A stretch of DNA of 64,000 nucleotides. Source: an uncultured Oscillospiraceae bacterium (lineage in GTDB: Bacteria; Bacillota; Clostridia; Oscillospirales; Acutalibacteraceae). The stretch is from assembly GCA_900539855.1 (NCBI GenBank), contig UQDO01000002.1:7033-71032 (forward strand). The letters are read 5' to 3'. Both the position numbers and the translations under genes were made by a program. Under the pieces are notes generated by a model. The model had not been told where the DNA came from. It worked only from the letters and a program-made list of their open reading frames with translations, and did no database searches. Below are positions 1 through 38,515 of the stretch, one piece after another; position 1 is the stretch's first letter, and every line of letters starts with the position of its first letter.

Positions 1-757
1 TATTGCACCTGCCGCATTTGCCGATACCGCACTTCATTCGAAGCTCCATTGTGGTATAAACCTGAGTCTTATCAAAGCCAAGCTCAATAAGACCGGCAAG
101 CGTAAATTTTATCATTATAGGCGGACCGCAGAGCACCGCGATCTTATCGGTCGAAAATCCAAGCTCCTTGACATAGTTCGGAACGAAGCCGACATGACCG
201 TTCCATTCGGGCTGCTCACGGTCGATAGTGAGATACACGGTGACACCGGCATCATTCGCCCATTCGTCGATGATCTCTTTATAGTCCACAAGGTCCTGCA
301 TGCTGCGCGAGCCGTACACTATATCTATCTTACCGTAACGGTCACGGTAATGACGGCAGTAGTTTATTACCGAACGCAGAGGCGCCAGACCTATACCGCC
401 GGCAATAAACAGCATGTCATGACCGGCAAACTCGGTATCCACCGGGAATGGTCTGCCGTACGGACCTCTTATGGTTATCTGCTGACCGACCTCCATTGAA
501 TGGAGCCATTCGGTCACGCAGCCGCACTTCTTTATGGAAAACTCCATAAATTCCTCATTGGTCGGCGACGAGGTTATTGAAAACATAGCTTCACCAACAC
601 CTGGAACGGACAGCATGGCGCACTGACCCGGCTTATGCTCGAATGCCTTTTTGCCGTCCGGCGTCACGACACGGAAAGTTTTGACATCGGGAGTGTCGAT
701 CCTTATATCGGTAACAACGCCGATATGAGGTATCAGCGGTTCCTTTAACTCAGCCAT
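1..757 (-). CDS. FAD/NAD(P)H oxidoreductase, AsrB / sulfhydrogenase-gamma / FlxA-like; partial, C-terminus lies beyond the window start
   Basis: The reverse translation from the ATG at 757 reads MAELKEPLIPHIGVVTDI..., with a ferredoxin-reductase-type FAD/NAD fold. A CGIGKCGRC 2Fe-2S motif sits near the window edge. An AGGAGG RBS lies upstream. It is the last gene of the hdr/flx-like operon. Confidence 0.7.
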   Translation of the reverse strand, partial: MAELKEPLIPHIGVVTDIRIDTPDVKTFRVVTPDGKKAFEHKPGQCAMLSVPGVGEAMFSITSSPTNEEFMEFSIKKCGCVTEWLHSMEVGQQITIRGPYGRPFPVDTEFAGHDMLFIAGGIGLAPLRSVINYCRHYRDRYGKIDIVYGSRSMQDLVDYKEIIDEWANDAGVTVYLTIDREQPEWNGHVGFVPNYVKELGFSTDKIAVLCGPPIMIKFTLAGLIELGFDKTQVYTTMELRMKCGIGKCGRCN

Positions 758-1784
758 TTTTCTTACCTCCTAACCTTTTCATGACCTTGACTATGTTCAT
801 CTGTATCGGGCATTTTGAGACGCAGCGTCCGCAGCCGACGCAGGAGAACATTCCGTCATTGTTGGTCGGGAAATAAACAAGCTTATGCATAAAGCGCTGA
901 CGGAAGCGCTCAAGCTGGGTAAGTCTCGGCTGTCCGGCAGACATTTTTGTAAACTCGGAATACATGCACGAATCCCAGCAGCGGAAACGCTTTATACCGT
1001 GACCGGTATTGAAATCCTTTATATCATAGCACTGGCAGGTCGGGCACACAAAGGTACATGTGCCGCAGCCGAGGCATGACTCCGACAGCTCCTTCCATTC
1101 CGGAGCGTCGAAAAATTCCTTTGTCTTGCCGTCTCCGAAGCTATCGGCTGAAAGATCTGCAAGCGGCAGCGCTGCAAGTCTTTTCCTTGTCATTTCCTGC
1201 TGTTCAGAAACTGCCTTTTCGTCAGCCTGCTCGGTAATGTCCTCGATAGACTCCAGCAGCTTTTCACCTTTCGGTGTTTTGGGCTGCATATAAAGCGCAT
1301 CGTCGGTCTTAAAGCAGACAACGTCCCCGGCAGGGTCGGCTGCATCTATGCCGAAGGTGCCGCAGAAGCAGGTCTCATGCGGCTTTGTACAGGCAAGCGA
1401 CATTATAATGCCGTGGTCGCGGCGGTTTTTGTAGTAGGTATCAACAGGATCGGCAAGGAACACCCTGTCAAGCACGTCAAAGCTCTTGACATCGCAGGCG
1501 CGGACGCCGAAAACGACGAAATCCTCACACTCGGTCCTTGTATCGATTATCTCGATATTCTTACCTTCGACCTTGAAGTCCATAAGATTCTCGGTCTGCG
1601 GAAAGAAGAAATCCTTGGGGCTGCGGACGGTATTGAGCGCGTCGGACAGCTCCTTGCCGTCCTCCCACTTTTCATACTTTGCCCCTGCCTTGGTGTCAAC
1701 CGGGATGTACAGCGTATTTGCGGCGGCGATGGCGCCAAAAAGCGCATTTATCTTCTGAAGTGATATTTTACGCATTCTCGCCAC
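750..1784 (-). CDS. Fe-S subunit, AsrA / HydB / FlxB/C-like (two CxxCxxCxxxCP ferredoxin motifs)
   Basis: The 344-aa ORF carries CLGCGTCTFVCP and CVGCGRCVSKCP motifs and has an AsrA-like N-terminus. It overlaps the upstream gene by 17 nt, consistent with translational coupling. Confidence 0.65.
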   Translation of the reverse strand: MARMRKISLQKINALFGAIAAANTLYIPVDTKAGAKYEKWEDGKELSDALNTVRSPKDFFFPQTENLMDFKVEGKNIEIIDTRTECEDFVVFGVRACDVKSFDVLDRVFLADPVDTYYKNRRDHGIIMSLACTKPHETCFCGTFGIDAADPAGDVVCFKTDDALYMQPKTPKGEKLLESIEDITEQADEKAVSEQQEMTRKRLAALPLADLSADSFGDGKTKEFFDAPEWKELSESCLGCGTCTFVCPTCQCYDIKDFNTGHGIKRFRCWDSCMYSEFTKMSAGQPRLTQLERFRQRFMHKLVYFPTNNDGMFSCVGCGRCVSKCPIQMNIVKVMKRLGGKKNG

Positions 1785-2760
1785 CCCTTTCGACCGCCTC
1801 TTTAGGCTCTATATCATCGGTTTTATAATCAACTATAGGCGCGCGGCTGCCGATCTTTTCACCGGCGGTGTATTCGCCGTAGAATTCATCTATATCCTTG
1901 ATGAACTTACGGTTCAACAAATGAAGCGGTATATGCTGCGGACATACCCTTGAGCACTCACCGCAGTCGGTGCAGCGTCCGACAACATGGAACGCGCGGA
2001 TTATATGGAACATCTTCTCCTCAAACGAGTTTGCCGCCGCCTTGTTTTCAACACCGGAATTGGGATTGTCGAAAACGCATTTTTCACAGGTACATGCCGG
2101 ACATACATCACGGCAGGCATTGCAGCGGATGCAGCGCGAAAGCTCTCCCTGCCAGAAGGCAAAACGCTCATCGGGGGTCATTTTTTCAAGGCGCTCCACC
2201 TCGTCAAAGCGGTGAGACTCCAGCACCTCGCCGTCGCTGCCGAGCAGCTCATCAAAGGCGACATGCTTTTTGGATTTGCAGTTTTTGCATCTGTCGGGCA
2301 AAATATCATCGCCCTTTACGGTCACATCACCGTCGTAAAGTGTTGTTATAACAACATCATTGCCGTTTTCCGACACGGACGCAATACCGTCGGCTGAGCA
2401 TTTCAGCTTGCCGACATCATACATTCCGCTGCACGGAACGCCGACTACATAGACCTTTTCACGGTCAAATCTGTGTTCGGTAAGGAGCTGGTTGAAGCTG
2501 TATGTATCACATGGCTTTAAAAACACAAGCACCTTGCCGTCGCTCTTTGCGGTCTCCTTTATAAGATATTTTGAAAAGTTTGCACCGCAGAAGCTGTTCC
2601 AGACAAGCTCCTTTTCGATCTCCTCCGTGCTGTAGAAAACGCCGGGGGTGACATCATAGTCATATTCTCCGCGTTTCCAGCCGAGGACCCTGTCAACAGT
2701 ACCGGAGCTTAACAGCTCGTTCGCCTTTGAAACAAGTATATCGCGTGTTATTTCTTGCAT
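1768..2760 (-). CDS. Fe-S subunit, AsrA / HydB / FlxB/C-like (tandem paralog of 750-1784)
   Basis: The 330-aa ORF carries CIRCNACRDVCP and CTDCGECSRVCP motifs. Its architecture matches the neighbouring ORF. A GGAGGA RBS is present. Confidence 0.65.
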   Translation of the reverse strand: MQEITRDILVSKANELLSSGTVDRVLGWKRGEYDYDVTPGVFYSTEEIEKELVWNSFCGANFSKYLIKETAKSDGKVLVFLKPCDTYSFNQLLTEHRFDREKVYVVGVPCSGMYDVGKLKCSADGIASVSENGNDVVITTLYDGDVTVKGDDILPDRCKNCKSKKHVAFDELLGSDGEVLESHRFDEVERLEKMTPDERFAFWQGELSRCIRCNACRDVCPACTCEKCVFDNPNSGVENKAAANSFEEKMFHIIRAFHVVGRCTDCGECSRVCPQHIPLHLLNRKFIKDIDEFYGEYTAGEKIGSRAPIVDYKTDDIEPKEAVERGGENA

Positions 2761-3182
2761 CTCAGATCCTCCAATCTCTTGTTTTCACCGAGAGCCGCGA
2801 CCTTTTCGGCAAAATCGTTCATAGTTGCGGCAAACTTTGCACCCTCGGCAGCCGACACCCACTCAACACGGGTACGCTCACGCTCAATGCCGAGGTAATC
2901 GAGCATTGAAAACAGCAGAGCCATACGGCGGCGTGCATAATAGTTGCCTGAGGTATAATGGCAGTCGCCCGGATGACATCCGCAGATGATAACACCGTCG
3001 GCACCGCGCTGGAACGCGCGCAGAATAAACATCGGGTTCACCCTGCATGAGCAGGGAACGCGGATTATTTTAACATTATCAGGATAGTTAAGGCGGTTGT
3101 TTCCGGCAAGATCGGCGCCGGCATACGAGCACCAGTTACAGCAAAACGCCACGATCAGCGGCTTATATTCATTTACTTGCAT
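2748..3182 (-). CDS. mvhD: MvhD / FlxD-like [2Fe-2S] hydrogenase delta-subunit family protein
   Basis: The 144-aa protein has the Cys-rich pattern FCCNWCSYAGADLAG...CSCRV...CGCHPGDCHY typical of MvhD. It overlaps the hdrA stop. A GGAGGT RBS is present. Confidence 0.8.
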   Translation of the reverse strand: MQVNEYKPLIVAFCCNWCSYAGADLAGNNRLNYPDNVKIIRVPCSCRVNPMFILRAFQRGADGVIICGCHPGDCHYTSGNYYARRRMALLFSMLDYLGIERERTRVEWVSAAEGAKFAATMNDFAEKVAALGENKRLEDLRCKK

Positions 3183-5167
3183 ATCGCGTCAACCTCCGCC
3201 ATGATCTGTTTGTTCATGAAGCCCTTAAGGTCCATGGCACCCGACATACAGGCGACCGTACAGGCTCCGCAGCCCTGACACACAGCCTCGTTGACGCTGG
3301 CGACACGGCGGACCTTGGTAGTCCTGTCAGGCATCCTGAATTCCTTTTCAACATAAGAGATTGCGCCGTACGGGCAGACCTTTTCGCAGGTCGAGCAGCC
3401 GTTGCACATCATCTCGTCCGAATGGGCAACACACGGGTTGCCGGTCAGCTTATCCTTGCAGAGCAGACCTATGACCTTTGACGCGGCAGCGCCTGCCTGG
3501 GATACCGTTTCGGGTATATCCTTCGGTCCCTGACACGTTCCCGAAAGGAACACGCCTGCAGTCGGACTTTCGACCGGACGCAGCTTGGGATGCGCCTCGG
3601 TAAAGAAATCGTTAGTGTCCATACTTGCAGTCAGCATGGTTGCAAGCGGACGTGCCGATTTGTCAGGCTCGATAGCGGCGGCAAGCACCACAAGGTCTGC
3701 ATCTATATGAAGCTGACGGTTATCTATAAGATCGGACGCACGCACCTTGAGCTTTCCGCCCTCGGGCGACACCTTTCCTACCATACCCTTTATGTAATGC
3801 ACGCCGTATTCCTCGACTGCACGGCGGTAGAACTCATCAAAGTTCTTGCCCGGTGTTCTTACATCTATATAGAATACATAGACCTCGGTATCGGGATACT
3901 TATCGCGTATCAGCATGGCGTGCTTCGCAGTGTACATACAGCATATCTTTGAGCAATATTCCTTGCCCTTTTCGGCGCACGCCTCGCAGCGTGATCCGAC
4001 GCACTGCACGAACACTATCGTGTGCGGATGCTCGCCGTCCGACGGGCGCAGCAGAGTGCCGCCGGTAGGTCCGGCAGCGTTCATAAGACGCTCGAGCTCC
4101 AGAGAGGTTATAACATCCTTTGACTGCGAATATGCATATTCGTCGAACTTATCCATTGAAATAGGATTGAAGCCGGTCGCGACGACTATCGCACCGTACT
4201 TTTCCTCGACGTATTCGTCCTGTGCCTTATAGTCTATGGCTCCTGCGGTACATACCTTGGAGCAGACGCCGCATTTGCCGGTCTTTAACATCATACAGTA
4301 GTTGGGGTCAATAGTAGCGACCTTGGGGACTGCCTGAGCAAAGGGAATATAAATGGCGCGGCGGTTATCCATGCCGAGGTTGAACTCGTTGGGGATCCTG
4401 CGCTGCGGACATTTCTCGGTGCAGGCTCCGCATCCGGTACAGACATCCTCTTTTACATAACGCGCGCGGCGCTTTATGGTGACATCAAAGTTACCTACAA
4501 AGCCCTTTACGTCGGTGACCTCAGAATACGAGAATATGCGGATCTTGTCGTTCTGCGCGACATCGACCATTTTAGGTGTCAGAATACAGGCGGCGCAGTC
4601 GAGGGTCGGGAACGTTTTGTCTAACTGAGCCATTTTTCCGCCTATGGTAGGCTTGGTCTCAACTATATCGACAGGGAAACCTGCGTCGGCAATATCAAGT
4701 GCGGTCTGGATGCCGGCGATACCGCCGCCTATGACCAGAGCGCGCTTGGTGACCGGGCTTTCACCCGGTGTCAGCGGCGCGTTGAGGGCGACCTTGGCGA
4801 CTGCCGCCTTGGCAAGGATTATAGCCTTTTCGGTGCCTGTGGGCATGTCCTTATGCACCCATGAGCACTGCTCACGGATGTTGGCTATCTCGACCATATA
4901 CGGATTCAGTCCTGCTGCCGCGGCGGTCTTGCGGAAGGTAGCTTCATGCATACGGGGCGAACATGAGCAGACAACTATTCCGGTCAGCTTATGCTCGGCG
5001 ACCGACTGCTTTATCATATCCTGTCCAGCCTGAGAGCACATGTACTGATAATCGGTGGAGAAAACTACTCCGGGTTCATTTTTAATAGCCTCGGCTACGG
5101 CCTTTACATCGACCGTTCCGGCAATATTTGTGCCGCAATGGCACACGAATACTCCTATTCTCTGCAC
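3173..5167 (-). CDS. hdrA: Heterodisulfide reductase subunit A-like flavoprotein (FAD plus multiple 4Fe-4S)
   Basis: The protein has the HdrA N-terminal signature IGVFVCHCGTNIAG, a GGGIAG FAD motif and several CxxCxxCxxxCP motifs. The start is placed at the GTG at 5167, which has a strong AAAGGAG RBS. The ATG at 5209 has no RBS and would overlap hdrC. Confidence 0.8.
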   Translation of the reverse strand: MQRIGVFVCHCGTNIAGTVDVKAVAEAIKNEPGVVFSTDYQYMCSQAGQDMIKQSVAEHKLTGIVVCSCSPRMHEATFRKTAAAAGLNPYMVEIANIREQCSWVHKDMPTGTEKAIILAKAAVAKVALNAPLTPGESPVTKRALVIGGGIAGIQTALDIADAGFPVDIVETKPTIGGKMAQLDKTFPTLDCAACILTPKMVDVAQNDKIRIFSYSEVTDVKGFVGNFDVTIKRRARYVKEDVCTGCGACTEKCPQRRIPNEFNLGMDNRRAIYIPFAQAVPKVATIDPNYCMMLKTGKCGVCSKVCTAGAIDYKAQDEYVEEKYGAIVVATGFNPISMDKFDEYAYSQSKDVITSLELERLMNAAGPTGGTLLRPSDGEHPHTIVFVQCVGSRCEACAEKGKEYCSKICCMYTAKHAMLIRDKYPDTEVYVFYIDVRTPGKNFDEFYRRAVEEYGVHYIKGMVGKVSPEGGKLKVRASDLIDNRQLHIDADLVVLAAAIEPDKSARPLATMLTASMDTNDFFTEAHPKLRPVESPTAGVFLSGTCQGPKDIPETVSQAGAAASKVIGLLCKDKLTGNPCVAHSDEMMCNGCSTCEKVCPYGAISYVEKEFRMPDRTTKVRRVASVNEAVCQGCGACTVACMSGAMDLKGFMNKQIMAEVDAICK

Positions 5168-5183
5168 GGTGTTTTCTCCTTTC

Positions 5184-5576
5184 TCACTTGGAATATTTAC
5201 GCATAGCACTGACTATCGCCTGCTGCGGCAGATCGTCGTCAACCAGCTGCGGAATGTCGTCGGGGGTCATATGATTTTTTCCCTTTTCCCTTATGACCGT
5301 AAGGCGCACTGCCTCTATAAGCTTTGCCGGCTCCACGCCTCTCGGGCAGCGGTCAACACATGCAAAGCAGGAAAGACATTTATATATCGACTTTGAATTC
5401 ATAAGCGCGTCCAGCTCGCCGGTCTCGACCATATAAACAAACTGGTGCGGATGATATTCCATCTCGTCATACGACGGACATGTGCCGGAGCACTTTCCGC
5501 AGCGCATGCACTTTAAGGGATTCACTCCGCTCATGCGGAGTATCTGTTCTTTTTTAAGATCATTCTTATTCGGCAT
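5184..5576 (-). CDS. hdrC: Heterodisulfide reductase subunit C-like (two 4Fe-4S)
   Basis: The 130-aa protein carries CMRCGKCSGTCP and CLSCFACVDRCP motifs. An AAGGAGG RBS is present. It overlaps the hdrB stop. Confidence 0.75.
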   Translation of the reverse strand: MPNKNDLKKEQILRMSGVNPLKCMRCGKCSGTCPSYDEMEYHPHQFVYMVETGELDALMNSKSIYKCLSCFACVDRCPRGVEPAKLIEAVRLTVIREKGKNHMTPDDIPQLVDDDLPQQAIVSAMRKYSK

Positions 5577-6372
5577 GAGGCGCCTCCTTTACTCCGAGAG
5601 CCTCGGCAAGCAGCTCGGTGAAATATACCACCGGCACATCACTGCCGTTTTTAAGCAGGTTGTATTTGCAGAGAGGACATGCGGTAACTATCATATCGGC
5701 ACCGTGCGATCTTGCGCTTTCAGTCACGGCACGGCTCTTTCTGGCAGCCGACTCGTTATCCTCAAGCACGACATAACCGCCGCAGCACTCATTGCGTTCG
5801 GCATATATTACCGGCTCGGCACCGAGTGCCTTTATAAGGTTTTCCATTATCTGCGGATTTTCCGGATCGTCCGTTTTGAGCACCTTTCCGGGGCGCAGCA
5901 GCATACATCCGTAATACGCCGCTATTTTTTTGCCTGAGAGCGGATTTGTGACCGCTGCCTTTACATTATCAAAGCCCACCTTATCGCGGAGCAGCTCCAG
6001 ATAATGCAGCACCTCGGTCTCGCCGCCGTACGGCTCGCTGCCGTCGTTGTCCTGCGCCATATAGCGCGCGGCCTTGGCGGCAAACTCCTCATCGGACTTT
6101 ATCGTCTCATTGGTCTGCTTTATAACATTGTGACATGCCGAGCACACCGTGACAAGCGGCATGCCGGCATCTCTCGCAGCCTTTAAGGCACGAACACTTG
6201 ACAGCTTTGTGGCGATCTCGTCCTTAGAAGAAACGAACACGCCGCCGCAGCACTGCCAGTTTTCTATCTCACACAGCTCAACACCGAGCTTTTCTGCACT
6301 TTTTCTTGCCCAAAGGTCGAGATCCTTCGCCTTTGTACGCAGGGTGCAGCCCGGAAAATAACTGACTTTCAT
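5566..6372 (-). CDS. hdrB: Heterodisulfide reductase subunit B-like (CCG domains)
   Basis: The 268-aa protein has two CCG-type motifs, WQCCGG and NECCGG. A GGAGGA RBS is present. Confidence 0.8.
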   Translation of the reverse strand: MKVSYFPGCTLRTKAKDLDLWARKSAEKLGVELCEIENWQCCGGVFVSSKDEIATKLSSVRALKAARDAGMPLVTVCSACHNVIKQTNETIKSDEEFAAKAARYMAQDNDGSEPYGGETEVLHYLELLRDKVGFDNVKAAVTNPLSGKKIAAYYGCMLLRPGKVLKTDDPENPQIMENLIKALGAEPVIYAERNECCGGYVVLEDNESAARKSRAVTESARSHGADMIVTACPLCKYNLLKNGSDVPVVYFTELLAEALGVKEAPHAE

Positions 6373-13771: not shown

Positions 13772-14488
13772 ATGATAAGAGTTACTGTATGGAATGAATT
13801 CCGCCACGAAAAGTCAAGCGACAAGGTAAAGGCTATCTACCCCGACGGCATGCACAAGGTCATAGCCGACTTTTTGCAGTCCGATGACATTGAGGTGCGC
13901 ACCGCGACCCTCGACGAGCCGGAATGCGGTCTGACCAAAGAGGTTGTGGACAGCACCGATGTCATGATATGGTGGGGTCATATGCATCATGATCTTGTGC
14001 CGGACGAGATAGCCCTGAGAGTAAAGGAAGCGGTGCTCAAGGGAATGGGCATCATATTCCTTCATTCAGGCCATCATTCAAAGCCGTTCCGCTATCTGCT
14101 CGGCACTACATGCAACCTTTCGTGGCGCGAGAACGGCGATCTCGAACGTATATGGACAATTAATCCGGCTCATCCGATAGCTAAAGGCATCGGCAGGTAT
14201 TTTGAGCTTCCGCATGAGGAGACGTACGCCGAACCCTTCGCCATACCTAATCCCGATGAAGTGGTCTTTATGGGCTGGTATGAAGGCGGCGAACTCTTCC
14301 GTTCGGGCTGCACATTCCACCGTGAAAACGGCAGGATCTTCTATTTCCAGCCGGGTCACGAGTCGTTCCCGACCTTCTACGACAAAAATGTTAGGACCAT
14401 CATCCGCAACGCGGTATATTGGGCAGCCCCGGTCATCCGCAGTGAGGCGCTCTTATGCCCTCATATCAAAAAAATAGGCGAGGAGTAA
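13772..14488 (+). CDS. ThuA-like (trehalose-utilization / GATase1-like) family protein
   Basis: The protein reads [13 protein letters not shown]... and follows an AAGGAG RBS. ThuA-family proteins classically pair with a Gfo/Idh/MocA oxidoreductase, as seen here. Confidence 0.7.
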
Positions 14489-14537
14489 TTTTAATAAAGG
14501 CATGTGCGCGGCTGACGGCAGCGCCTAAAAAGTACAG

Positions 14538-14570
14538 GGTGGCGGAAATGTAAATTTCCGCCACCTTTTT
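14538..14570 (+). terminator. Rho-independent terminator after the ThuA-like gene
   Basis: The hairpin ggtggcggaaat-gtaa-atttccgccacc is followed by TTTTT. Confidence 0.5.
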
Positions 14571-14591
14571 AATAAATCCCGGACCGTTAAA

Positions 14592-14759
14592 TTTTAGTTT
14601 ATAGGCATAAGAAACCGAAAATCAAATTGTGCATTTGTAGGGAACGAGCCTCGAGTGTCGTTCCGCGCGGTTTCATTAGGTTTTAAGGAACGACACTCGA
14701 GGCTCGTTCCCTACGTCTATCAATTAATTATACGAATACCATTCACCTATAAACTAAAA
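14592..14759. repeat. Nested inverted-repeat (MITE/REP-like) element with the family termini TTTTAGTTTATAGG / CCTATAAACTAAAA
   Basis: The outer arms are a perfect 14-bp IR at 14592-14605 and 14746-14759. The inner arms are a perfect 28-bp IR at 14637-14664 and 14687-14714 around a 22-nt loop. Confidence 0.6.
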
Positions 14760-14944
14760 TTTAAACCAATCAGATCAAAAACCGGATGTGTTGTTGCATA
14801 ATGCATTGATCTGCCGGAATACGACATTTTCCATTTCCACCCATCTGACTCTACTCACAGTAGAGTCAGCGTGTAATGTCTATTCATTTTTCTATTGATA
14901 AAAGCGTGGGCTGCGCTATAATAAAGATGTAAGGGGCGGAGGGC

Positions 14945-17832: not shown

Positions 17833-18645
17833 ATGCTTAAGACCGAAATGAGAAACGAAAACTCAATGCACATAGACAAAATGGATACCCTATCGATGGT
17901 AAAACTCATAAACGAGGAAAATAAAAAATCGGTAAACGCCGTCGATGAGGCGCTCCCGGCAATAGCCGCGGTATGTGATGCGGCAGCCGCCAGCCTTGAA
18001 AAGGGCGGAAGGATATTTTATGTCGGTGCCGGAACGTCGGGACGCATAGGAGTAATGGACGCTGCCGAGTGTCCGCCCACCTTCGGTGTGGAAAAGGACA
18101 GGGTTATAGGCATTATCGCCGGCGGCGCAAAATGCATGACTATGGCTGCCGAAGCCGAGGAGGACAATGCAGAAGCCGGCAGAGAGGATATAGCCCGTTA
18201 CGGTCTCAATGAAAAGGATATAGTTATAGGCATTTCGGCGTCGGGCGGTGCGGATTATGTTGTGGGCGCGCTTTTGTACGCCAACAGCGTCGGAGCGTGC
18301 AGCGTCAGTATTTCAAGCAACAGCGACACCCCGATAGAGCATGCCGCAAAGCTCCACATAGTGGTCGACACCGGAGCCGAGGTCATAACCGGTTCAACAA
18401 GAATGAAGAGCGGTACGGCTCAGAAGCTTGTGCTCAATATGATCTCGACCGCAGCCATGGTGAAAACAGGCAAGGTGTATGAAAATCTTATGATAAATCT
18501 AAGACCCGGCAACCGCAAGCTAAAGCTGAGGATGATAGGCATTGTCAGTGAAATAGCCGGAAGTGATGCCGAAAACTCGGAAAAACTGCTTGATGCCAAT
18601 GGCTGGAACATCCGCAAGGCAGTAGAAGAAGAGACGAAAAAATGA
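17833..18645 (+). CDS. murQ: N-acetylmuramic acid 6-phosphate etherase (SIS domain)
   Basis: The protein matches MurQ/SIS at ...LINEENKKSVNAVDEALPAIAAV...GRIFYVGAGTSGRIGVMDAAECPPTFG... and is 270 aa. Confidence 0.75.
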   Translation: MLKTEMRNENSMHIDKMDTLSMVKLINEENKKSVNAVDEALPAIAAVCDAAAASLEKGGRIFYVGAGTSGRIGVMDAAECPPTFGVEKDRVIGIIAGGAKCMTMAAEAEEDNAEAGREDIARYGLNEKDIVIGISASGGADYVVGALLYANSVGACSVSISSNSDTPIEHAAKLHIVVDTGAEVITGSTRMKSGTAQKLVLNMISTAAMVKTGKVYENLMINLRPGNRKLKLRMIGIVSEIAGSDAENSEKLLDANGWNIRKAVEEETKK

Positions 18646-18670
18646 CCTTCGGTCTGACCGGAGGTCATTA
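18639..18670. repeat. 32-bp GC hairpin, left copy of a perfect direct repeat flanking the 234-bp element; probably also the murQ terminator
   Basis: The sequence aaatgaccttcggtctgaccggaggtcattac recurs identically at 18905-18936. On the minus strand the hairpin is followed by TTTTTT. Confidence 0.6.
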
Positions 18671-18904
18671 CAGTCTGTCGATAAACCTCAAAGTCTACTC
18701 TTTCGTCGGTTATACTGCATTTTCTGTTTTTCCGCTGACATGCGCGGCGAAAAAACACCTTGTAAGCGAAAAACCGCAGAATATAGCGGTTTTTCAAGGA
18801 CACTGGGGTGGTATTGGCGGGGATAGAGCGCAGTCCGAAAATCTTTGATTTTCGAGCGAGCGGCATTCCCGTCCAAAAGCGTGTCGAATTTTTCGACACG
18901 CTCA
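18671..18904. repeat. 234-bp structured element, copy 1 (candidate sRNA or miniature mobile element)
   Basis: It differs from 38246-38479 by 3 substitutions in 234 bp. It contains internal hairpins (aaaaccgc-agaatata-gcggtttt, cgaaaatc-ttt-gattttcg, gcgtgtcgaa-ttt-ttcgacacgc). No protein-like ORF is present. Confidence 0.6.
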
Positions 18905-18936
18905 AATGACCTTCGGTCTGACCGGAGGTCATTACT
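18905..18936. repeat. 32-bp GC hairpin, right copy of the direct repeat flanking the 234-bp element
   Basis: It is identical to 18639-18670. Confidence 0.6.
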
Positions 18937-21264: not shown

Positions 21265-21284
21265 GGTGAATTTTAGTTTAGAGG
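21265..21284. repeat. Solo copy of the GGTGAATTTTAGTTTA repeat-family terminus
   Basis: It shares 16 bp with 38170-38185. No partner arm was found nearby. Confidence 0.4.
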
Positions 21285-21480
21285 TATTAAATGCGAAAAT
21301 TCCAATTCAGCGCTTGTATGGCAGGTGCCCCACGATGTGCAAATCAGTTTTTATGTTTATTATCGAACAGCCTTAAATTTAAAATGTCGTTCATATAGTC
21401 CGGTACATGTTTTTATCATATTTGCGTTTTGGTAAATTATATTGTATAATTAATATATACTTTTAAAAATGTGGTGCTGT

Positions 21481-31111: not shown

Positions 31112-31204
31112 CGCCAAAACACATCACCGCAGAGGGCATACGGATTTCGTTTGTCTGCATGATCTTATTTTTCGGCAGACTAAGCCGAACGAGCTTTTAA
31201 GTGT

Positions 31205-31394
31205 CGTTCCTTAATAAACAGCCTAAAAACCAATTGACACTTTGTAGGGCAAGGGTCCCACTTCTGCCGCCACTTTTACAACAAATCAAGCAATTAATTT
31301 TAGTTTATAGGTGCACAAAAAACAAATGGCTAATTGAATTTTTGTAGGGAACGACCTATGTCTGTCAATATTTCATTACGCAGATAAACTAAAA
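31205..31394. repeat. Degenerate composite copy of the TTTTAGTTTATAGG / TGTAGGGAACGAC inverted-repeat element
   Basis: Family motifs occur in a fixed order. These are gtgtcgttcc at 31211, ttgtagggcaa at 31243, ttttagtttatagg at 31298, tgtagggaacgac at 31333 and ataaactaaaa at 31384. Confidence 0.45.
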
Positions 31395-31473
31395 TTTACC
31401 GACCTGTTATACTGCTGCATTTTAATTGCTCGGGGGATATAAACATCCCCCGGGCAAATTTTGTACGCATTTT

Positions 31474-34642: not shown

Positions 34643-35395
34643 TCAGCTTATTCCCAGTATTCTTTTCCATGAGTTGAGTCCCACGGCGCCGTCAGCCACA
34701 AGACCGTTTGCAGCCTGCCATTTGATGACCGCTGCACGGGTATCATTGCCGAACTTGCCGTCCGCGGTCACGCCGACTACTTGCTGAACGATAGCAGTAA
34801 GATTTTTGTACCTGTAGCCGACGGCATATTTTTTGCATATCGCCTGCTTCGCGACCGCAGCGCACTCTGCACCCCACGCGCCGTCAGCGCCGTACCTCGG
34901 GAATTTGAAGCCGTCAGCCATCGCCGCTTTCTGCCACTGCTTTACCGATACCGACGACACGGCTGCTACGCCAAAGGTCGAGCGGTATTTCTGATCCTGC
35001 CCGTACCAGAACGACTTTGTCACACGGGTGTCAATGTGAACAAAATAGCCGTCCTTCGCTGTCTCGTAAAGTCCGATACCCTTTGCACCTATGCTTTCTG
35101 CGTACTTCGCAACCTCGGAGGGGCTGACACCTGCGATCATGATGTCAGCCGCCATGCCTGCCTTGTGCTTTGACGCGGTCGCGCCGCCGACCGACCGGTT
35201 GTGCCTTTCGCAGCGGTATCCGCTCGAAATTATGATCGGCTTGCCGAAATGGTCACGGATCTTCTGCAGATATTCCACAAGCTGCATGTCCACAAGCGTT
35301 TCATTGCAGCAGCCCACACCGTGGCAGTCAAACTCAGTTGAACGGAAATTTGCACTGAGTTGTGTCGATACGCCCTTTTTAAACCTCTTTATCAA
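34643..35395 (-). CDS. Phage endolysin: M15-type zinc peptidase plus a C-terminal peptidoglycan-binding domain
   Basis: The zinc motifs SGYRCERHNRSVGG...SKH...D of the Peptidase_M15 family are present. The C-terminal repeat ADGKFGNDTRAAVIKWQAANGLVADGAVG is a PG_binding_1 domain. Confidence 0.8.
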   Translation of the reverse strand: MIKRFKKGVSTQLSANFRSTEFDCHGVGCCNETLVDMQLVEYLQKIRDHFGKPIIISSGYRCERHNRSVGGATASKHKAGMAADIMIAGVSPSEVAKYAESIGAKGIGLYETAKDGYFVHIDTRVTKSFWYGQDQKYRSTFGVAAVSSVSVKQWQKAAMADGFKFPRYGADGAWGAECAAVAKQAICKKYAVGYRYKNLTAIVQQVVGVTADGKFGNDTRAAVIKWQAANGLVADGAVGLNSWKRILGIS

Positions 35396-35567
35396 TGTTA
35401 TCCTCCTCTCCTTTTTCCTTTATTGCCGCCTCAATCTCGGCGAGATCACCCTCGGTGAGGACGCCCTTTTCGAGCCACCCGGCGGCGTTTAAAATTATCT
35501 GGTAGTCAGCCATGCTGCCTGCCGCTTTTATAAGACCTGATTTTATGAAATTTCTTAAATTGAACAT
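35379..35567 (-). CDS. XkdX-family small phage protein
   Basis: The 62-aa protein follows the XkdX-like pattern ...GWLEKGVLTEGDLAEIEAAIKEK. It lies between the tail-fibre and endolysin genes, as in PBSX-like phages. Confidence 0.55.
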   Translation of the reverse strand: MFNLRNFIKSGLIKAAGSMADYQIILNAAGWLEKGVLTEGDLAEIEAAIKEKGEEDNIDKEV

Positions 35568-37708
35568 TATACATTCCCTCCGAGCGATATTATCGCCTGT
35601 TTTAATTCGTCAAACGCTTTGTTTATATCCCTGTTGTATCTGGTGCTGAGCGTACCGGGCGACTTCACGGCAAATGTGCAGACATTCTCCCTTGCGGCGG
35701 TTACATTGCCGTCAGTATCGGGCGTAAGCTCCGCCGGCGCTGCGTATTTTTCATAACCTGCGGCGGCGTCGCTGCACCTGACCTGTATTCTGACCTTGTA
35801 ATTGTCGAAAGCCACGCCGGCATATACATAGATCCATGTTCTCTCAAGAAAATAGCTCCTGTCGCAGGTTTTGGTCTGTGACGTGCTTTCGTTTTTAAGC
35901 GGTGCGGCGTGCAGCTTGTCACCCCAAAGAGCAGCATCGTTTGTGTATCCGGTGTGGAACACGGCATCCCGACCATACTGATTTTGTGTAGTAGTGCCGC
36001 TTACATATTCAACGTCGACTGTAAAATCTTTATTCAGCCCATAATAAAAATTGGGTATTGCGACAGTAAACTGCTGGTTTTCCGACGGAGAAGAACCGTT
36101 AAATAAGAAGCAATCTTCATCCGGCAGATACTGTATTGTAATACCGCCAAAGGTCTGAGCAGTCATCCAAGGAGTCGGGTCAAAAATGTTGCGGCCGAGC
36201 TTATAGACCTTGGAAGGCGCATTATCGCCCACGGCAGCAACATTTACGGTGACCGTGTCCTCGCATGGCGAAACATCGTCTATCCCCAGCATGCTTCCCG
36301 ATTTTTGTGACACCAGCGCGTTTGCTCTTTCACCGAGACAGGAGCTAATGTCCCTGTTGTAGGTCACGCTGACGGTGCCGGCAGACACCGAGACGGTCAT
36401 GGGCGACGCGGTGGAATTAAGCCCCGTGACCGTGCCGTCGGCAGAAGCAGAGCCTGTAGATACCGTGCCGTCCGGCGCCGTGACCGTAACGGCGGTGGGT
36501 ATAGCCTGTACGGTACTGACGGTCAGAGTGCAGGTCTCGGTCACAAGATCGCTTTGCAGTATACCATTTACCGCAAATCCTGTGATCTTTGAACCGGCAG
36601 CTACGGTCGTACTTACCGTAACATCGTCATTTATGGCACCATAGCAGCCCTTTTTGCCGGTAACCGTAAGTGTCGTCCCGTCTATTACATAATCCAGGAC
36701 GCTGAAGCATGACGTTTCGGCATTTGCTGATGTTGTCACTGCCGCATCAGTGACCTGTTCGCCGTCCACTACAGGCACAAGTACGGACGGACTGCTTGAA
36801 GGTATAGTGCCCTCTACACCGGATTTGCGCTCAATGTACCCCTGCAAAACAACATGAACGTTTTCATCCGGCTGTTCAAGTGTTATGCTGCCTGCACTTG
36901 TAAGAGCATTTTTAGATACCTCGACAAGTCCCGTGCCTGATGTCAGCACCGAGCACTTTACCTTTAACTCATGCTTTAAGGGCGATACATCATTTACCGT
37001 AAATGATGTTCCACCAACCGTGTTTTTAACCGGGTTGCAAAGCTCGTTCGGCAAACTTACCAGAGTTTCAAGCTTCTGCACCGCGCTCTTGGCAATTTCA
37101 GCCTGCGCTTTCGCCTCATCGGCTTTACTTTCTGCCGATCTGCTGCAGTTGAAAGCCATGTTGCTGCTGAGTTCGCAGGCGGTTTTTATTCCGGCTGCCG
37201 TCTCGCTGTCGGTCTTGGCATTATCAGCACTCAGTTTGGCATCGGCTGCGAGGGCGGCGGCTGACTCTGCGCTTGCCTTTGCCTCATCAATGCGCTTGTC
37301 GCAAAGCAGCATCATACTTTCGAAATTGTCCGAAGATCTCTCGATTTCTGCAAACGGTGTTTCTGAAACGCCGACATTCAGCGGCAGCACCGAGCTCTTG
37401 CATATCTGCACTGCTTCGCCGTCCGACTCCTTATATCCGGCAAGCTGGAAATGTATCACCGGCGCGTTCATTGCCTCAAAGGGCACCGTATATTCGATAA
37501 TTCCATCGCTAATATAAAGCTTTTCACTGTAATGACCGTCAATTATCACTCTATAATATTCGGAATTGCCGAAATGTGTCCCGGATATATCGTCAATGCT
37601 TATGCGGAGCAGAACGGCATTGTGTTCTCCTCCGTAACCTATTGTTCTGTCGGGCTCACTCAACCACGCTTTTCCGTCATCATAGAATTTGATTGTGGTA
37701 TAACGCAT
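35567..37708 (-). CDS. Phage tail fibre / host-specificity protein (BppU-like N-terminus, coiled coil, Ser/Thr/Val-rich beta region)
   Basis: The 713-aa protein has an Ala/Lys-rich coiled coil over about residues 140-210. A long T/S/V-rich region follows. It is the first gene of the phage remnant on this strand. Confidence 0.6.
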   Translation of the reverse strand: MRYTTIKFYDDGKAWLSEPDRTIGYGGEHNAVLLRISIDDISGTHFGNSEYYRVIIDGHYSEKLYISDGIIEYTVPFEAMNAPVIHFQLAGYKESDGEAVQICKSSVLPLNVGVSETPFAEIERSSDNFESMMLLCDKRIDEAKASAESAAALAADAKLSADNAKTDSETAAGIKTACELSSNMAFNCSRSAESKADEAKAQAEIAKSAVQKLETLVSLPNELCNPVKNTVGGTSFTVNDVSPLKHELKVKCSVLTSGTGLVEVSKNALTSAGSITLEQPDENVHVVLQGYIERKSGVEGTIPSSSPSVLVPVVDGEQVTDAAVTTSANAETSCFSVLDYVIDGTTLTVTGKKGCYGAINDDVTVSTTVAAGSKITGFAVNGILQSDLVTETCTLTVSTVQAIPTAVTVTAPDGTVSTGSASADGTVTGLNSTASPMTVSVSAGTVSVTYNRDISSCLGERANALVSQKSGSMLGIDDVSPCEDTVTVNVAAVGDNAPSKVYKLGRNIFDPTPWMTAQTFGGITIQYLPDEDCFLFNGSSPSENQQFTVAIPNFYYGLNKDFTVDVEYVSGTTTQNQYGRDAVFHTGYTNDAALWGDKLHAAPLKNESTSQTKTCDRSYFLERTWIYVYAGVAFDNYKVRIQVRCSDAAAGYEKYAAPAELTPDTDGNVTAARENVCTFAVKSPGTLSTRYNRDINKAFDELKQAIISLGGNV

Positions 37709-38167: not shown

Positions 38168-38209
38168 TGGTGAATTTTAGTTTATCTGCATAAAGGTAAA
38201 CTAAAATTT
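38168..38209. repeat. Minimal hairpin copy of the TTTTAGTTTA inverted-repeat family
   Basis: ggtgaattttagtttat-ctgcataaagg-taaactaaaattt has 13-bp arms. Confidence 0.5.
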
Positions 38210-38217
38210 ATAATTAA

Positions 38218-38246
38218 AGACCGGCAGGAATGTCCCTGCCGGTCCC
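38218..38246. repeat. GC hairpin of the gaccggcagg family, left flank of 234-bp element copy 2
   Basis: gaccggcaggaatgtccctgccggtc is near-identical to 21209-21238. Confidence 0.45.
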
Positions 38247-38479
38247 AGTCTGTCGATAAACCTCAAAGTCTACTCTTTCGTCGGTTATGCTGCATTTTCT
38301 GTTTTTCCGCTGACATGCGCGGCGGAAAAACACCTTGTAAGCGAAAAACCGCAGAATATAGCGGTTTTTCAAGGACACTGGGGTGGTATTGGCGGGGATA
38401 GAGCGCAGTCCGAAAATCTTTGATTTTCGAGCGAGCGGCATTCCCGTCCAAAAGCGTGTCGACTTTTTCGACACGCTCA
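38246..38479. repeat. 234-bp structured element, copy 2
   Basis: It matches 18671-18904 with 3 mismatches in 234 bp. Confidence 0.6.
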
Positions 38480-38505
38480 GACCGCAGTTCCCTGCGGTCT
38501 TTTTC
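38480..38505 (+). terminator. Rho-independent terminator abutting the 3' end (plus sense) of element copy 2
   Basis: The hairpin gaccgcag-ttcc-ctgcggtc is followed by TTTTTC. Confidence 0.5.
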
Positions 38506-38515
38506 TGTAAAAAAA

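What the first reader, a model, noticed from the sequence alone, without database searches (positions are those of the whole stretch)
14592..14759. Nested perfect inverted repeats (14-bp outer, 28-bp inner) form a 168-bp MITE/REP-like element whose termini recur elsewhere in the window
The outer arms ttttagtttatagg / cctataaactaaaa are perfect, and the inner arms gtagggaacgagcctcgagtgtcgttcc and their exact reverse complement are perfect. This would fold into a long, bulged hairpin. Related copies occur at three other sites. A degenerate composite at 31205-31394 keeps the motifs gtgtcgttcc, tgtagggaacgac and ttttagtttatagg...ataaactaaaa. A 37-bp minimal hairpin lies at 38168-38209. A solo terminus ggtgaattttagttta lies at 21265-21284. 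All copies are intergenic and AT-flanked. This is a small interspersed palindromic repeat family. It could be a MITE or a REP/BIME-like terminator-insulator, and it would be a substrate for RAYT/IS200-like transposases if those are encoded elsewhere in the genome.
Basis: seen in the sequence. Interest (0 to 1): 0.55.

Follow-up and report, generated by a model that had tools for sequence, protein, structure and literature searches.

The report
Dispersed palindromic repeat family, gut Clostridia
The nested palindrome is real and is one copy of a previously undescribed family of small non-coding repeats (probably around a hundred per genome) in an uncultured human-gut bacterium; it is an ordinary kind of selfish or commensal DNA, but here it sits next to transcription terminators and is flipped or swapped between strains.

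Summary
The outer inverted repeat is 19 bp, not 14 (14587-14605 / 14746-14764). The inner repeat is 28 bp, perfect, with a 22-nt spacer. The 12-mer AATTTTAGTTTA occurs 7 times in the window; 0.6 are expected by chance.

The host is an uncultured human-gut Acutalibacteraceae. The family is not confined to the window. Gut-metagenome contigs of the same species carry at least 26 further distinct loci, about one per 16-27 kb. Two other Clostridia MAGs carry related copies.

Members share three parts:
- a near-invariant AT-rich terminal repeat, (GRTA)AATTTTAGTTTAT;
- two arms drawn from a few sequence types;
- a central GC hairpin with GTAG at its foot (REP-like), present as a single, half or inverted-doublet hairpin.

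All copies are intergenic. 44% of termini lie 15-29 nt downstream of a terminator-like hairpin, against 1.7% of control positions.

Between strains the terminal repeats and flanks stay fixed, while the interior is inverted (site B and one other locus) or replaced (site A, site E). No strain has an empty site.

I found no transposase, RAYT or recombinase gene, no Rfam match and no literature match.

Verdict: a new member of the MITE/REP-BIME kind of repeat. The mobilising enzyme is unknown. Interest is moderate.

The parts
14587..14605 (+). Left terminal inverted repeat TTAAATTTTAGTTTATAGG. The family core is AATTTTAGTTTAT.
   Evidence: I2, 19 nt, 100%; family logo
14606..14636 (+). Left arm ('Z' type), ending in AATTG-N8 before GTAG
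   Evidence: (D5)
14637..14664 (+). Left REP-like unit: GTAG plus hairpin GGAACGAG / loop / GTCGTTCC
14665..14686 (.). 22-nt spacer of the hairpin doublet. It is inverted relative to the spacer of paralogous doublets.
   Evidence: 16-18 of 22-24 identical as reverse complement, 6-10 on the same strand; 0 of 2000 shuffles reach this
14687..14714 (-). Right REP-like unit, the exact reverse complement of the left one (ends in CTAC)
14715..14745 (-). Right arm (Y' type; contains TATCAATTAATTA)
14746..14764 (-). Right terminal inverted repeat
14487..14586 (+). Probable decayed upstream 'W' unit. It has a degenerate terminus AATTTTAATAAAGG overlapping the ThuA stop codon, GTACAGGG, the hairpin 14538-14565 with a T-run (the ThuA terminator), and the linker ...CCGTTA.
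   Evidence: (I3). The landmarks are collinear with W units, but arm similarity is modest.
31296..31396 (+). Complete 101-bp family member (X arm, GTAG, half hairpin, Y arm). Its interior is inverted relative to strains L007/L008.
31187..31293 (+). Decayed upstream unit: hairpin GAACGAGC..GTCGTTCC without GTAG (31187-31210), then GTAGGGCAAGGG..CTTCTGCC (31244-31268) and a linker
21269..21395 (+). Decayed W-type unit: exact terminus 21269-21280, GTAT-GGCAGGTGCC at 21316-21329, degenerate second terminus near 21377
   Evidence: (D7)
38173..38208 (.). Minimal 36-bp member: the two termini around the loop TCTGCATAAAGG. A second locus (L043 5349-5395) has the same loop type.

Best explanation
The 178-bp palindrome is an unusually symmetric copy of a dispersed family of non-coding modular repeats. 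Members are typically 100-125 bp, and up to about 180 bp. I estimate on the order of 100 copies per genome, in an uncultured human-gut Acutalibacteraceae.

Each member has three parts:
- a near-invariant AT-rich terminal inverted repeat, (G-R-T-A)AATTTTAGTTTAT;
- two arms of about 25-35 nt, drawn from a few sequence types;
- a central GC hairpin with GTAG at its foot. This is REP-like, and occurs as a half hairpin, a single 'double-foot' hairpin, or an inverted doublet as in this copy.

What the data show:
- Copies are dispersed to many unlinked intergenic sites.
- They lie next to terminators.
- Near-identical copies occur at several loci.
- The interior is flipped or replaced between strains, while the termini and flanks are conserved.

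What I infer:
- The family is non-autonomous mobile DNA of the MITE/REPIN kind, moved in trans by an enzyme encoded outside the window.
- That enzyme is either a transposase that reads the terminal repeat or a RAYT-type HUH enzyme that reads the GTAG hairpin.
- New copies land about 20 bp downstream of intrinsic terminators.
- Once in place, copies are inherited vertically and remodelled in three ways: recombination between their own inverted repeats (flips), loss or gain of the hairpin module, and conversion by other copies.
- Some upstream units supply the terminator hairpin of the preceding gene.
For: - Repeat structure and excess over chance in the window.
- Dispersal: 43 metagenome loci matched the pattern, of which about 31 belong to this family. 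That gives about 26 distinct loci. One sample alone has at least 15.
- Density: unselected extra copies in the flanks occur about once per 27 kb, and the window has 4 loci in 64 kb.
- Other taxa: related copies occur in a rabbit-gut Clostridia MAG and an Acutalibacteraceae MAG.
- Terminal repeat: the flank logo is A at -1 in 67 of 73 termini, T at -2 in 67 of 73, and G at -4 in 51 of 73.
- GTAG foot: GTAG is followed by a GC hairpin 4.1% of the time, against about 0.9% for control tetramers. 58 of the 69 such hairpins are family hairpins. The stems differ between subfamilies and species but still pair (GGAACGA, GGCAGGG, GGTTGCACC, GGACAGGCC).
- Genomic context: all copies are intergenic, with about 10 convergent, about 10 tandem and 2 divergent gene arrangements.
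- Terminators: 32 of 72 unique termini have a hairpin plus T-run ending 15-29 nt outside the repeat, against 1.7% of control intergenic positions.
- Recent spread or homogenisation: a 94-nt interior occurs with at most 2 differences at 4 or more unlinked loci.
- Minimal hairpins with the same loop occur at two loci.
- Strain remodelling.
- The host is named by NCBI on an identical protein.
Against: - No empty site was found at five loci compared across about 10 strains each. So no target-site duplication and no presence/absence polymorphism, the classical proof of mobility, could be shown.
- The flanking TA may be part of the terminal repeat rather than a duplication, because conservation continues outward to G at -4.
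- No transposase, Y1/RAYT or recombinase gene was found in the window or by motif in 580 kb of related contigs.
- About half of the neighbouring 'terminators' are family-internal hairpins (GGCAGG..CCTGCC). This inflates the terminator association.
- Whole-interior replacement between identical 13-19-bp repeats is not what simple cut-and-paste MITE biology predicts.
Confidence: 0.6

Rival explanations
1. Phase-variable invertons. The AT-rich repeats would be recognition sites of a site-specific invertase encoded elsewhere. The enclosed segment would flip within a population to switch expression of neighbouring genes.
For: - The interior of site B is an exact inversion between the 13-bp repeats in the window and L039 compared with L007/L008.
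- A second locus is flipped (L045 against L064/L073).
- The repeat 14-mer is conserved across loci and species while the arms diverge.
- The repeats are shorter than the assembly k-mers, so an assembly artefact is unlikely (inference).
Against: - There is no sigma-70-like promoter inside the elements. The only strong promoter near the main element is the downstream gene's own, at 14895-14922.
- Many copies lie between convergent genes, where there is nothing to switch.
- The inner 28-bp repeat, with an unrelated sequence, also shows a flipped spacer. This points to generic repeat-mediated flipping rather than one dedicated site.
- There is no recombinase gene in the window.
- The two orientations were seen in different strains, not within one sample.
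Confidence: 0.1
2. Fixed landing pads. The AT-rich palindrome ...AGTTTAT|ATAAACT..., placed about 20 bp after terminators, would be a resident target. The REP-bearing interior would be the mobile part. An HUH (IS200/IS605- or RAYT-like) enzyme would insert it 3' of TTTAT on either strand and excise it precisely.
For: - At sites A, B and E the repeats and flanks are 97.5-100% identical between strains, while the interior is replaced or inverted.
- The degenerate left repeat of site E is retained under both interiors.
- Allele A3 of site A is identical to the interior at an unlinked locus, L075.
- GTAG hairpins are the known substrates of RAYT enzymes (PMC6006769, PMC3337134).
Against: - No empty pad (the two termini abutting) was found in the loci or in viral contigs.
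- The minimal hairpins keep a shared 12-14-nt loop rather than a clean junction.
- The repeats travel with the interior to every locus, which is simpler if they belong to the element.
- No Y1 enzyme was found.
Confidence: 0.1
3. Host cis-elements that are no longer mobile. They would be terminator, insulator or protein-binding modules at gene 3' ends, as proposed for REP/BIME. Selection would maintain them, and gene conversion would homogenise them.
For: - Copies are fixed at orthologous sites in all strains examined.
- They are placed right after terminators and enriched between convergent and tandem genes.
- W units carry a hairpin plus T-run that serves as the first terminator after ThuA and after the 4HBT gene.
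- The 14-mer is strictly conserved.
Against: - Dispersal to about 100 sites still needs a mobility step.
- Many copies are decayed, truncated or deleted without visible consequence.
- The canonical central hairpin has no T-run on either strand (sequence).
- No binding protein is known.
Confidence: 0.15
4. Small RNA genes or RNA-level regulatory hairpins.
For: Stable hairpins are predicted. REPs and MITEs are often transcribed within 3' UTRs (PMC3733652).
Against: - No Rfam family matches above threshold. The only hits are generic miRNA-hairpin models far below their gathering scores.
- There is no promoter.
- Both orientations occur at the same site.
- The copies lie downstream of terminators.
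Confidence: 0.05

Closest known systems
REP / BIME / REPIN elements with their RAYT (TnpA-REP) enzymes (E. coli, Pseudomonas, Stenotrophomonas)
   Same: - GTAG tetranucleotide at the foot of a GC hairpin.
- Units in inverted pairs separated by a short spacer (REPIN).
- A single hairpin with GTAG...CTAC, the 'double foot'. PMC6006769 says this can arise by central deletion of an inverted dimer, which is exactly the relation between alleles A1 and A2 here.
- A mosaic of hairpins and conserved non-hairpin motifs, as in BIMEs.
- Location downstream of genes, between convergent or tandem ORFs (PMC3733652).
- Vertical persistence at orthologous sites.
   Different: - The best-conserved part here is an AT-rich terminal repeat about 35 nt away from the hairpin, not the hairpin itself.
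- Some members have no GTAG hairpin at all: the minimal hairpins and the L018 allele of site E.
- Hairpin loops are 6-10 nt.
- The host is a Firmicute. The 2013 survey lists GTAG repeats only in Proteobacteria, Cyanobacteria, Chloroflexi and the PVC group (PMC3733652).
- No cognate RAYT was found.
Bacterial MITEs with TA-flanked terminal repeats (Correia/NEMIS of Neisseria, RUP of pneumococcus)
   Same: - Size of 100-180 bp, non-coding, with terminal inverted repeats of about 14-26 bp.
- TA at both outer edges in about 90% of copies.
- Subtypes defined by alternative arms and by an internal indel of about 50 bp.
- Intergenic, in about 100 copies.
- The Correia and RUP details come from my own knowledge and from PMC10969869.
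   Different: - No empty site, so a TA duplication is unproven.
- No IS630-like or other parent IS was found.
- The interior carries a REP-like GTAG hairpin.
- Copies sit at a preferred distance from terminators.
Pneumococcal BOX and SPRITE modular repeats
   Same: - Modular build from a few sub-elements.
- SPRITE is a repeat that carries a rho-independent terminator-like hairpin (PMC10969869), like the W units here.
- Different repeat families cluster together. Here the 234-bp element lies next to family copies.
   Different: No sequence relationship. BOX and SPRITE lack the GTAG foot and the AT-rich terminal repeat.
Invertons (invertible promoters of gut bacteria)
   Same: Short inverted repeats flank a segment of about 80-150 bp that is found in both orientations.
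   Different: - No promoter inside and no adjacent invertase.
- About 100 copies, mostly at gene 3' ends.
- Orientation differs between strains, and was not shown to differ within a population.
IS1272 / IS1182-family targeting of stem-loops downstream of genes
   Same: A mobile element that chooses terminator-like inverted repeats as its target (PMC5678879). This resembles both the terminator-proximal position of this family and the hairpin-targeting 234-bp element in the window.
   Different: IS1272 replaces the target hairpin and makes no duplication. Here the family lies 15-29 nt beyond the hairpin, and the 234-bp element duplicates the whole hairpin.

Membership tests
REP/REPIN (RAYT-associated) | 5' GT[AG]G at the foot of a hairpin | tested here: met
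   GTAG directly precedes GGAACGA..TCGTTCC, GGCAGGG..CCCTGCC and other stems. Enrichment is 4.1% against about 0.9% for control tetramers. Definition from PMC6006769.
REP/REPIN (RAYT-associated) | Many extragenic copies per genome | tested here: met
   All copies are intergenic. About 26 distinct loci were seen, at a density of about one per 16-27 kb. The total is extrapolated, because no complete genome was available.
REP/REPIN (RAYT-associated) | [quoted passage not shown] | tested here: met
   Window 14637-14714. Also L044:1546, site E in L017, and site B in L010. Most copies, however, have a single or half hairpin.
REP/REPIN (RAYT-associated) | A cognate single-copy RAYT gene flanked by the same REPs | tested here: inconclusive
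   None in the window (Pfam). No HUH...Y motif ORF in 580 kb of loci. Most of the genome was not available.
MITE | Terminal inverted repeats, small size, no coding capacity, multiple copies | tested here: met
MITE | Target-site duplication shown by comparison with an empty site | tested here: inconclusive
   TA flanks both ends in about 90% of copies. No empty site was found at 5 loci across about 10 strains, nor in an 88%-identical relative whose synteny differs.
MITE | A parent IS with the same terminal repeats | tested here: not met
   The only repeat pairs 2 kb apart enclose an ABC-transporter operon or are chance matches. Nothing in viral contigs. The whole genome was not searched.
Inverton | Both orientations of the segment between the repeats | tested here: met
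   Seen between strains at site B and at the L045/L064 locus. Not tested within one population.
Inverton | Promoter inside the invertible segment and an invertase gene nearby | tested here: not met
   No promoter-like site inside. No recombinase in 64 kb.
Any Rfam RNA family | Covariance-model score at or above the gathering threshold | tested here: not met
   The best hit was 33.6 bits against a threshold of 53, to a generic miRNA hairpin model.

The most novel reading that the evidence does not exclude
The AT-rich palindromes would be fixed recombination or landing sites, placed at a set distance after terminators. A dedicated enzyme (an HUH enzyme or a site-specific recombinase) would insert, excise, flip and exchange small REP-bearing cassettes between about 100 such sites. 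That would be a genome-wide cassette-shuffling system at gene 3' ends, not a decaying MITE family.
Probability: 0.12. Interest if true: 0.7.

Novelty: new member of a known kind. Interest (0 to 1): 0.4.

Why it matters
- It adds a GTAG-footed, REP-like repeat family in a Firmicute. The 2013 survey of GTAG repeats did not report this phylum (PMC3733652). The family comes from an abundant but uncultured human-gut lineage.
- These repeats break short-read assemblies. Contigs L002, L003, L004, L006 and L038 all end inside them.
- They can mimic invertons in phase-variation screens.
- They mark sites of strain-level rearrangement.
- If an enzyme is found, the fixed termini with swapped interiors would offer a natural example of cassette exchange at terminators.

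Tried and rejected
- Promoter readings (ECF-type GGAAC/CGTC, sigma-54, outward TAAAAT -10, inward TTGACA). Spacing does not fit and the scanner finds none.
- CodY, IHF, dif/Xer site and integron attC. I compared the consensus sequences by eye and found no convincing match. IHF is also not expected in Clostridia (my own knowledge).
- Rfam at gathering and E-value thresholds: nothing.
- Viral contigs, three patterns: nothing, or only chance AT-rich matches.
- Repeat pairs about 2 kb apart as a candidate parent IS. One encloses an ABC-transporter operon flanked by a minimal hairpin and a promoter-like near-match; the other is chance.
- Motif search for Y1/RAYT ORFs: none.
- An empty site in an 88%-identical relative (L082): the upstream gene differs, so it is not informative.
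- Literature string search for the motifs: only unrelated hits.
- The first ThuA look-up failed because of the GTG start.
- The genome-contig scan returned only two true hits and not this species.

Full report
**1. Observation**

The sequence at 14587-14764 is as described, and somewhat more regular than reported.
- The inner arms 14637-14664 / 14687-14714 are 28 nt, perfectly complementary and 22 nt apart. The outer arms are 19 nt, perfect, at 14587-14605 / 14746-14764.
- As single-stranded DNA the 186-nt region folds at -50.9 kcal/mol, against -16.1 +/- 3.1 for shuffles.
- The terminal 12-mer AATTTTAGTTTA occurs exactly 7 times in the window: 14590+, 14750-, 21269+, 31296+, 31385-, 38173+ and 38197-. 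Chance predicts 0.6.
- The four sites lie between ORFs.

**2. Setting**

- The window is ordinary chromosome of a spore-forming Clostridia bacterium. It carries metabolic genes, SpoVT, YtfJ, ScpA/B and two tRNAs.
- NCBI labels a protein identical to the window's ECF-S component as coming from an Acutalibacteraceae MAG. All matching contigs come from human-gut metagenomes.
- Pfam scans of about 48 ORFs found no transposase, Y1/RAYT or recombinase gene.
- The main element lies between the ThuA terminator (14538-14565 plus T-run) and the promoter of the next gene (TTGATA-N16-TATAAT, 14895-14922).

**3. Anatomy**

Each inner arm is GTAG followed by a hairpin, GGAACGAG / loop / GTCGTTCC. This is the layout that defines REP sequences (PMC6006769). 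The two arms form an inverted doublet, which is the REPIN layout (PMC3337134).

Comparison of all copies gives a modular plan:
- a terminal repeat (G-R-T-A)AATTTTAGTTTAT;
- an arm of about 25-35 nt of type X, Y, Y' or Z, most of them ending in AATTG-N6-8;
- GTAG plus a hairpin;
- a second arm;
- the inverted terminal repeat.

The canonical members are X-hairpin-Y elements of 100-118 bp. The window copy at 31296-31396 is one of these.

A second unit type, which I call W, has:
- a terminus;
- a Y-like arm;
- GTAG (or GTAC) followed by GGCAGGGG..CTCCTGCC;
- a T-run;
- a 15-20-nt linker.

A W unit abuts the left terminus of a canonical member. Three regions of the window look like decayed W units: 14487-14586, 31187-31293 and 21269-21395.

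The 36-bp hairpin at 38173-38208 is a minimal member. Its loop type (CTGCRTAAAGGT) recurs at an unlinked locus, L043 5349-5395.

GTAG is followed by a GC hairpin 4.1% of the time, against about 0.9% for seven control tetramers. 58 of the 69 such hairpins belong to the family. Their stems differ between subfamilies and species but remain paired.

**4. Spread**

- A scan of 185,579 species-representative genomes found the terminus-plus-GTAGGGAAC pattern only in a rabbit-gut Clostridia MAG and an Acutalibacteraceae MAG, in both cases at contig ends. The window's own species was not recovered.
- A metagenome scan for the two termini 75-105 nt apart returned 43 loci. About 31 are this family, and the rest are unrelated palindromes.
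- The family loci represent about 26 distinct genomic sites. One sample, ERZ780149, has at least 15. Its flanks at site B are 98-100% identical to the window.
- Copies not selected by the search appear in the flanks about once per 27 kb. The window has 4 sites in 64 kb. This suggests on the order of 100 copies per genome, which is an extrapolation.
- A 94-nt interior occurs with at most two differences at four or more unlinked loci. That indicates recent spread or homogenisation.
- Several contigs end inside the element (L002, L003, L038, L004, L006), as expected for a repeat.

**5. Position**

- All copies are intergenic. Gene arrangements are about 10 convergent, about 10 tandem and 2 divergent (crude ORF calling).
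- Of 72 unique termini, 40 have a terminator-like hairpin with a T-tail within 110 nt outside. In 32 of these the hairpin ends 15-29 nt from the terminus. Only 1.7% of random intergenic positions in the same contigs meet this criterion.
- About half of these hairpins are family-internal W hairpins. At least 13 are unique gene terminators with unrelated sequences, and they show the same spacing.

**6. Strain comparisons**

I compared five orthologous loci across roughly ten strains each. Flanks were 97.5-100% identical.

Site A, the main element, has three alleles between identical termini:
- A1: Z arm, hairpin doublet, Y' arm. Found in the window, L031, L036 and L038.
- A2: the same arms, but with a single GTAG..CTAC 'double-foot' hairpin. 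Quentin et al. predict this as the product of a central deletion of a dimer (PMC6006769).
- A3: a Y-hairpin-X interior, identical to the copy at the unlinked locus L075.

Site B has several alleles:
- The window and L039 carry the interior in the opposite orientation to L007/L008. The match is 70 of 77 identical as reverse complement, plus a 17-nt indel; on the same strand it is near random.
- Most other strains carry a truncated allele that lacks the left terminus.

Other loci:
- Site E is absent from the window. It has two unrelated interiors between the same termini, including the same degenerate left terminus.
- A further locus has the Y arm on opposite sides in L045 compared with L064/L073.
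- In the window's main element, the 22-nt spacer between the perfect 28-nt arms is the reverse complement of the spacer in three paralogous doublets that have the same arm order.

Flips therefore occur across two unrelated inverted repeats. This argues for generic repeat-mediated inversion rather than a recombinase dedicated to one site.

No strain has an empty site. A target-site duplication therefore cannot be demonstrated. The TA at both edges could equally be part of the repeat, because conservation continues to G at -4.

**7. Interpretation**

The best reading is a non-autonomous interspersed repeat family that combines two things: MITE-like terminal repeats, and a REP-like GTAG hairpin.
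- It is lodged next to terminators, inherited vertically, and remodelled by inversion, hairpin loss or gain, and conversion by other copies.
- The mobilising enzyme is unknown.
- A RAYT-type HUH enzyme is favoured by the GTAG foot, the doublets and the stable occupancy of sites.
- A transposase that reads the terminal repeat is favoured by the invariance of the 14-mer, the TA edges, and the spread of minimal members that have termini only.

Rival readings and my estimated confidence in each:
- Inverton: 0.1.
- Landing pad for REP cassettes: 0.1.
- Purely host cis-element: 0.15.
- Small RNA: 0.05.

These are set out with their tests in the structured fields.

**8. Comparison with the known**

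- The family meets the sequence-level definitions of REP/REPIN and of MITE. For both, the enzyme-level criterion remains untested.
- It fails the promoter and invertase criteria for invertons.
- It matches no Rfam family.
- No paper in the searchable library contains its motifs.
- The 2013 survey of GTAG repeats does not list Firmicutes (PMC3733652). The same paper does describe composite structures of degenerate GTAG units joined to unrelated stem-loops, and RAYT-like genes flanked by long terminal repeats. So the hybrid architecture has precedent.
- I therefore rate it a new member of a known kind, of moderate interest.

Noticed in passing
window 18671-18904 and 38246-38479; also L020 5795-6028, L040 6842-7075, L001, L027: An unrelated 234-bp repeat (98-100% identical copies, imperfect terminal repeats AGYSTGTCGAWAAA). 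Its clean insertions are flanked by direct duplications of an entire terminator hairpin: 30-32 bp at 18640-18671 / 18904-18935, 21 bp in L020 and 23 bp in L040. L017 shows the empty site with one hairpin. A duplication that spans a whole stem-loop is unusual. Rfam finds nothing.
   Followed up: partly
window 38209-38515: The second 234-bp copy has non-matching hairpins on its two sides (GACCGGCAGGAATGTCCCTGCCGGTC against GACCGCAGTTCCCTGCGGTCT). It therefore looks like a recombinant between two insertions. Consistent with this, the window lacks the 4HBT / site E / histidine-kinase block that follows the SDR gene in L017-L022. Instead it joins a phage-like block: M15 peptidase at 34643-35395 and a 713-aa ORF with no Pfam match at 35567-37708.
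   Followed up: partly
L001 1-600 against window 14400-14640: In one gut sample, the contig that carries the gene downstream of the main element has a different left flank (two tRNA genes) and an X-type left arm joined to the window's hairpin doublet. The ThuA contig from the same sample (L038) ends inside the element. This is either a real rearrangement through the repeat or an assembly chimera.
   Followed up: partly
window 14845-14869; L082 about 379-405: An 11-bp-stem hairpin lies just upstream of the promoter of the HTH-BadF-type gene. In an 88%-identical relative the hairpin is kept with changed sequence (CTGACTCTACT..AGTAGAGTCAG against CTTAACTCTCCT..AGGAGAGTTAAG). It could be an operator or attenuator for this XRE-family regulator.
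   Followed up: no
all loci of this species, about 0.58 Mb: The tetranucleotide CTAG is extremely rare: 36 occurrences on both strands, against 1,700-3,900 for other tetramers counted in the same scan.
   Followed up: no
Genome-contig scan: The scan of GTDB species representatives did not return this species, although its contigs are common in gut metagenomes and should contain dozens of matches. The species may be missing from that set, or represented by a MAG that lacks these intergenic repeats.
   Followed up: no
window 750-6372, minus strand: A gene cluster of Fe-S proteins, an MvhD/FlpD-like subunit, an HdrA-like flavoprotein and CCG-domain proteins (heterodisulfide-reductase-like). It lies next to fumarase and malate/lactate dehydrogenase genes.
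   Followed up: no
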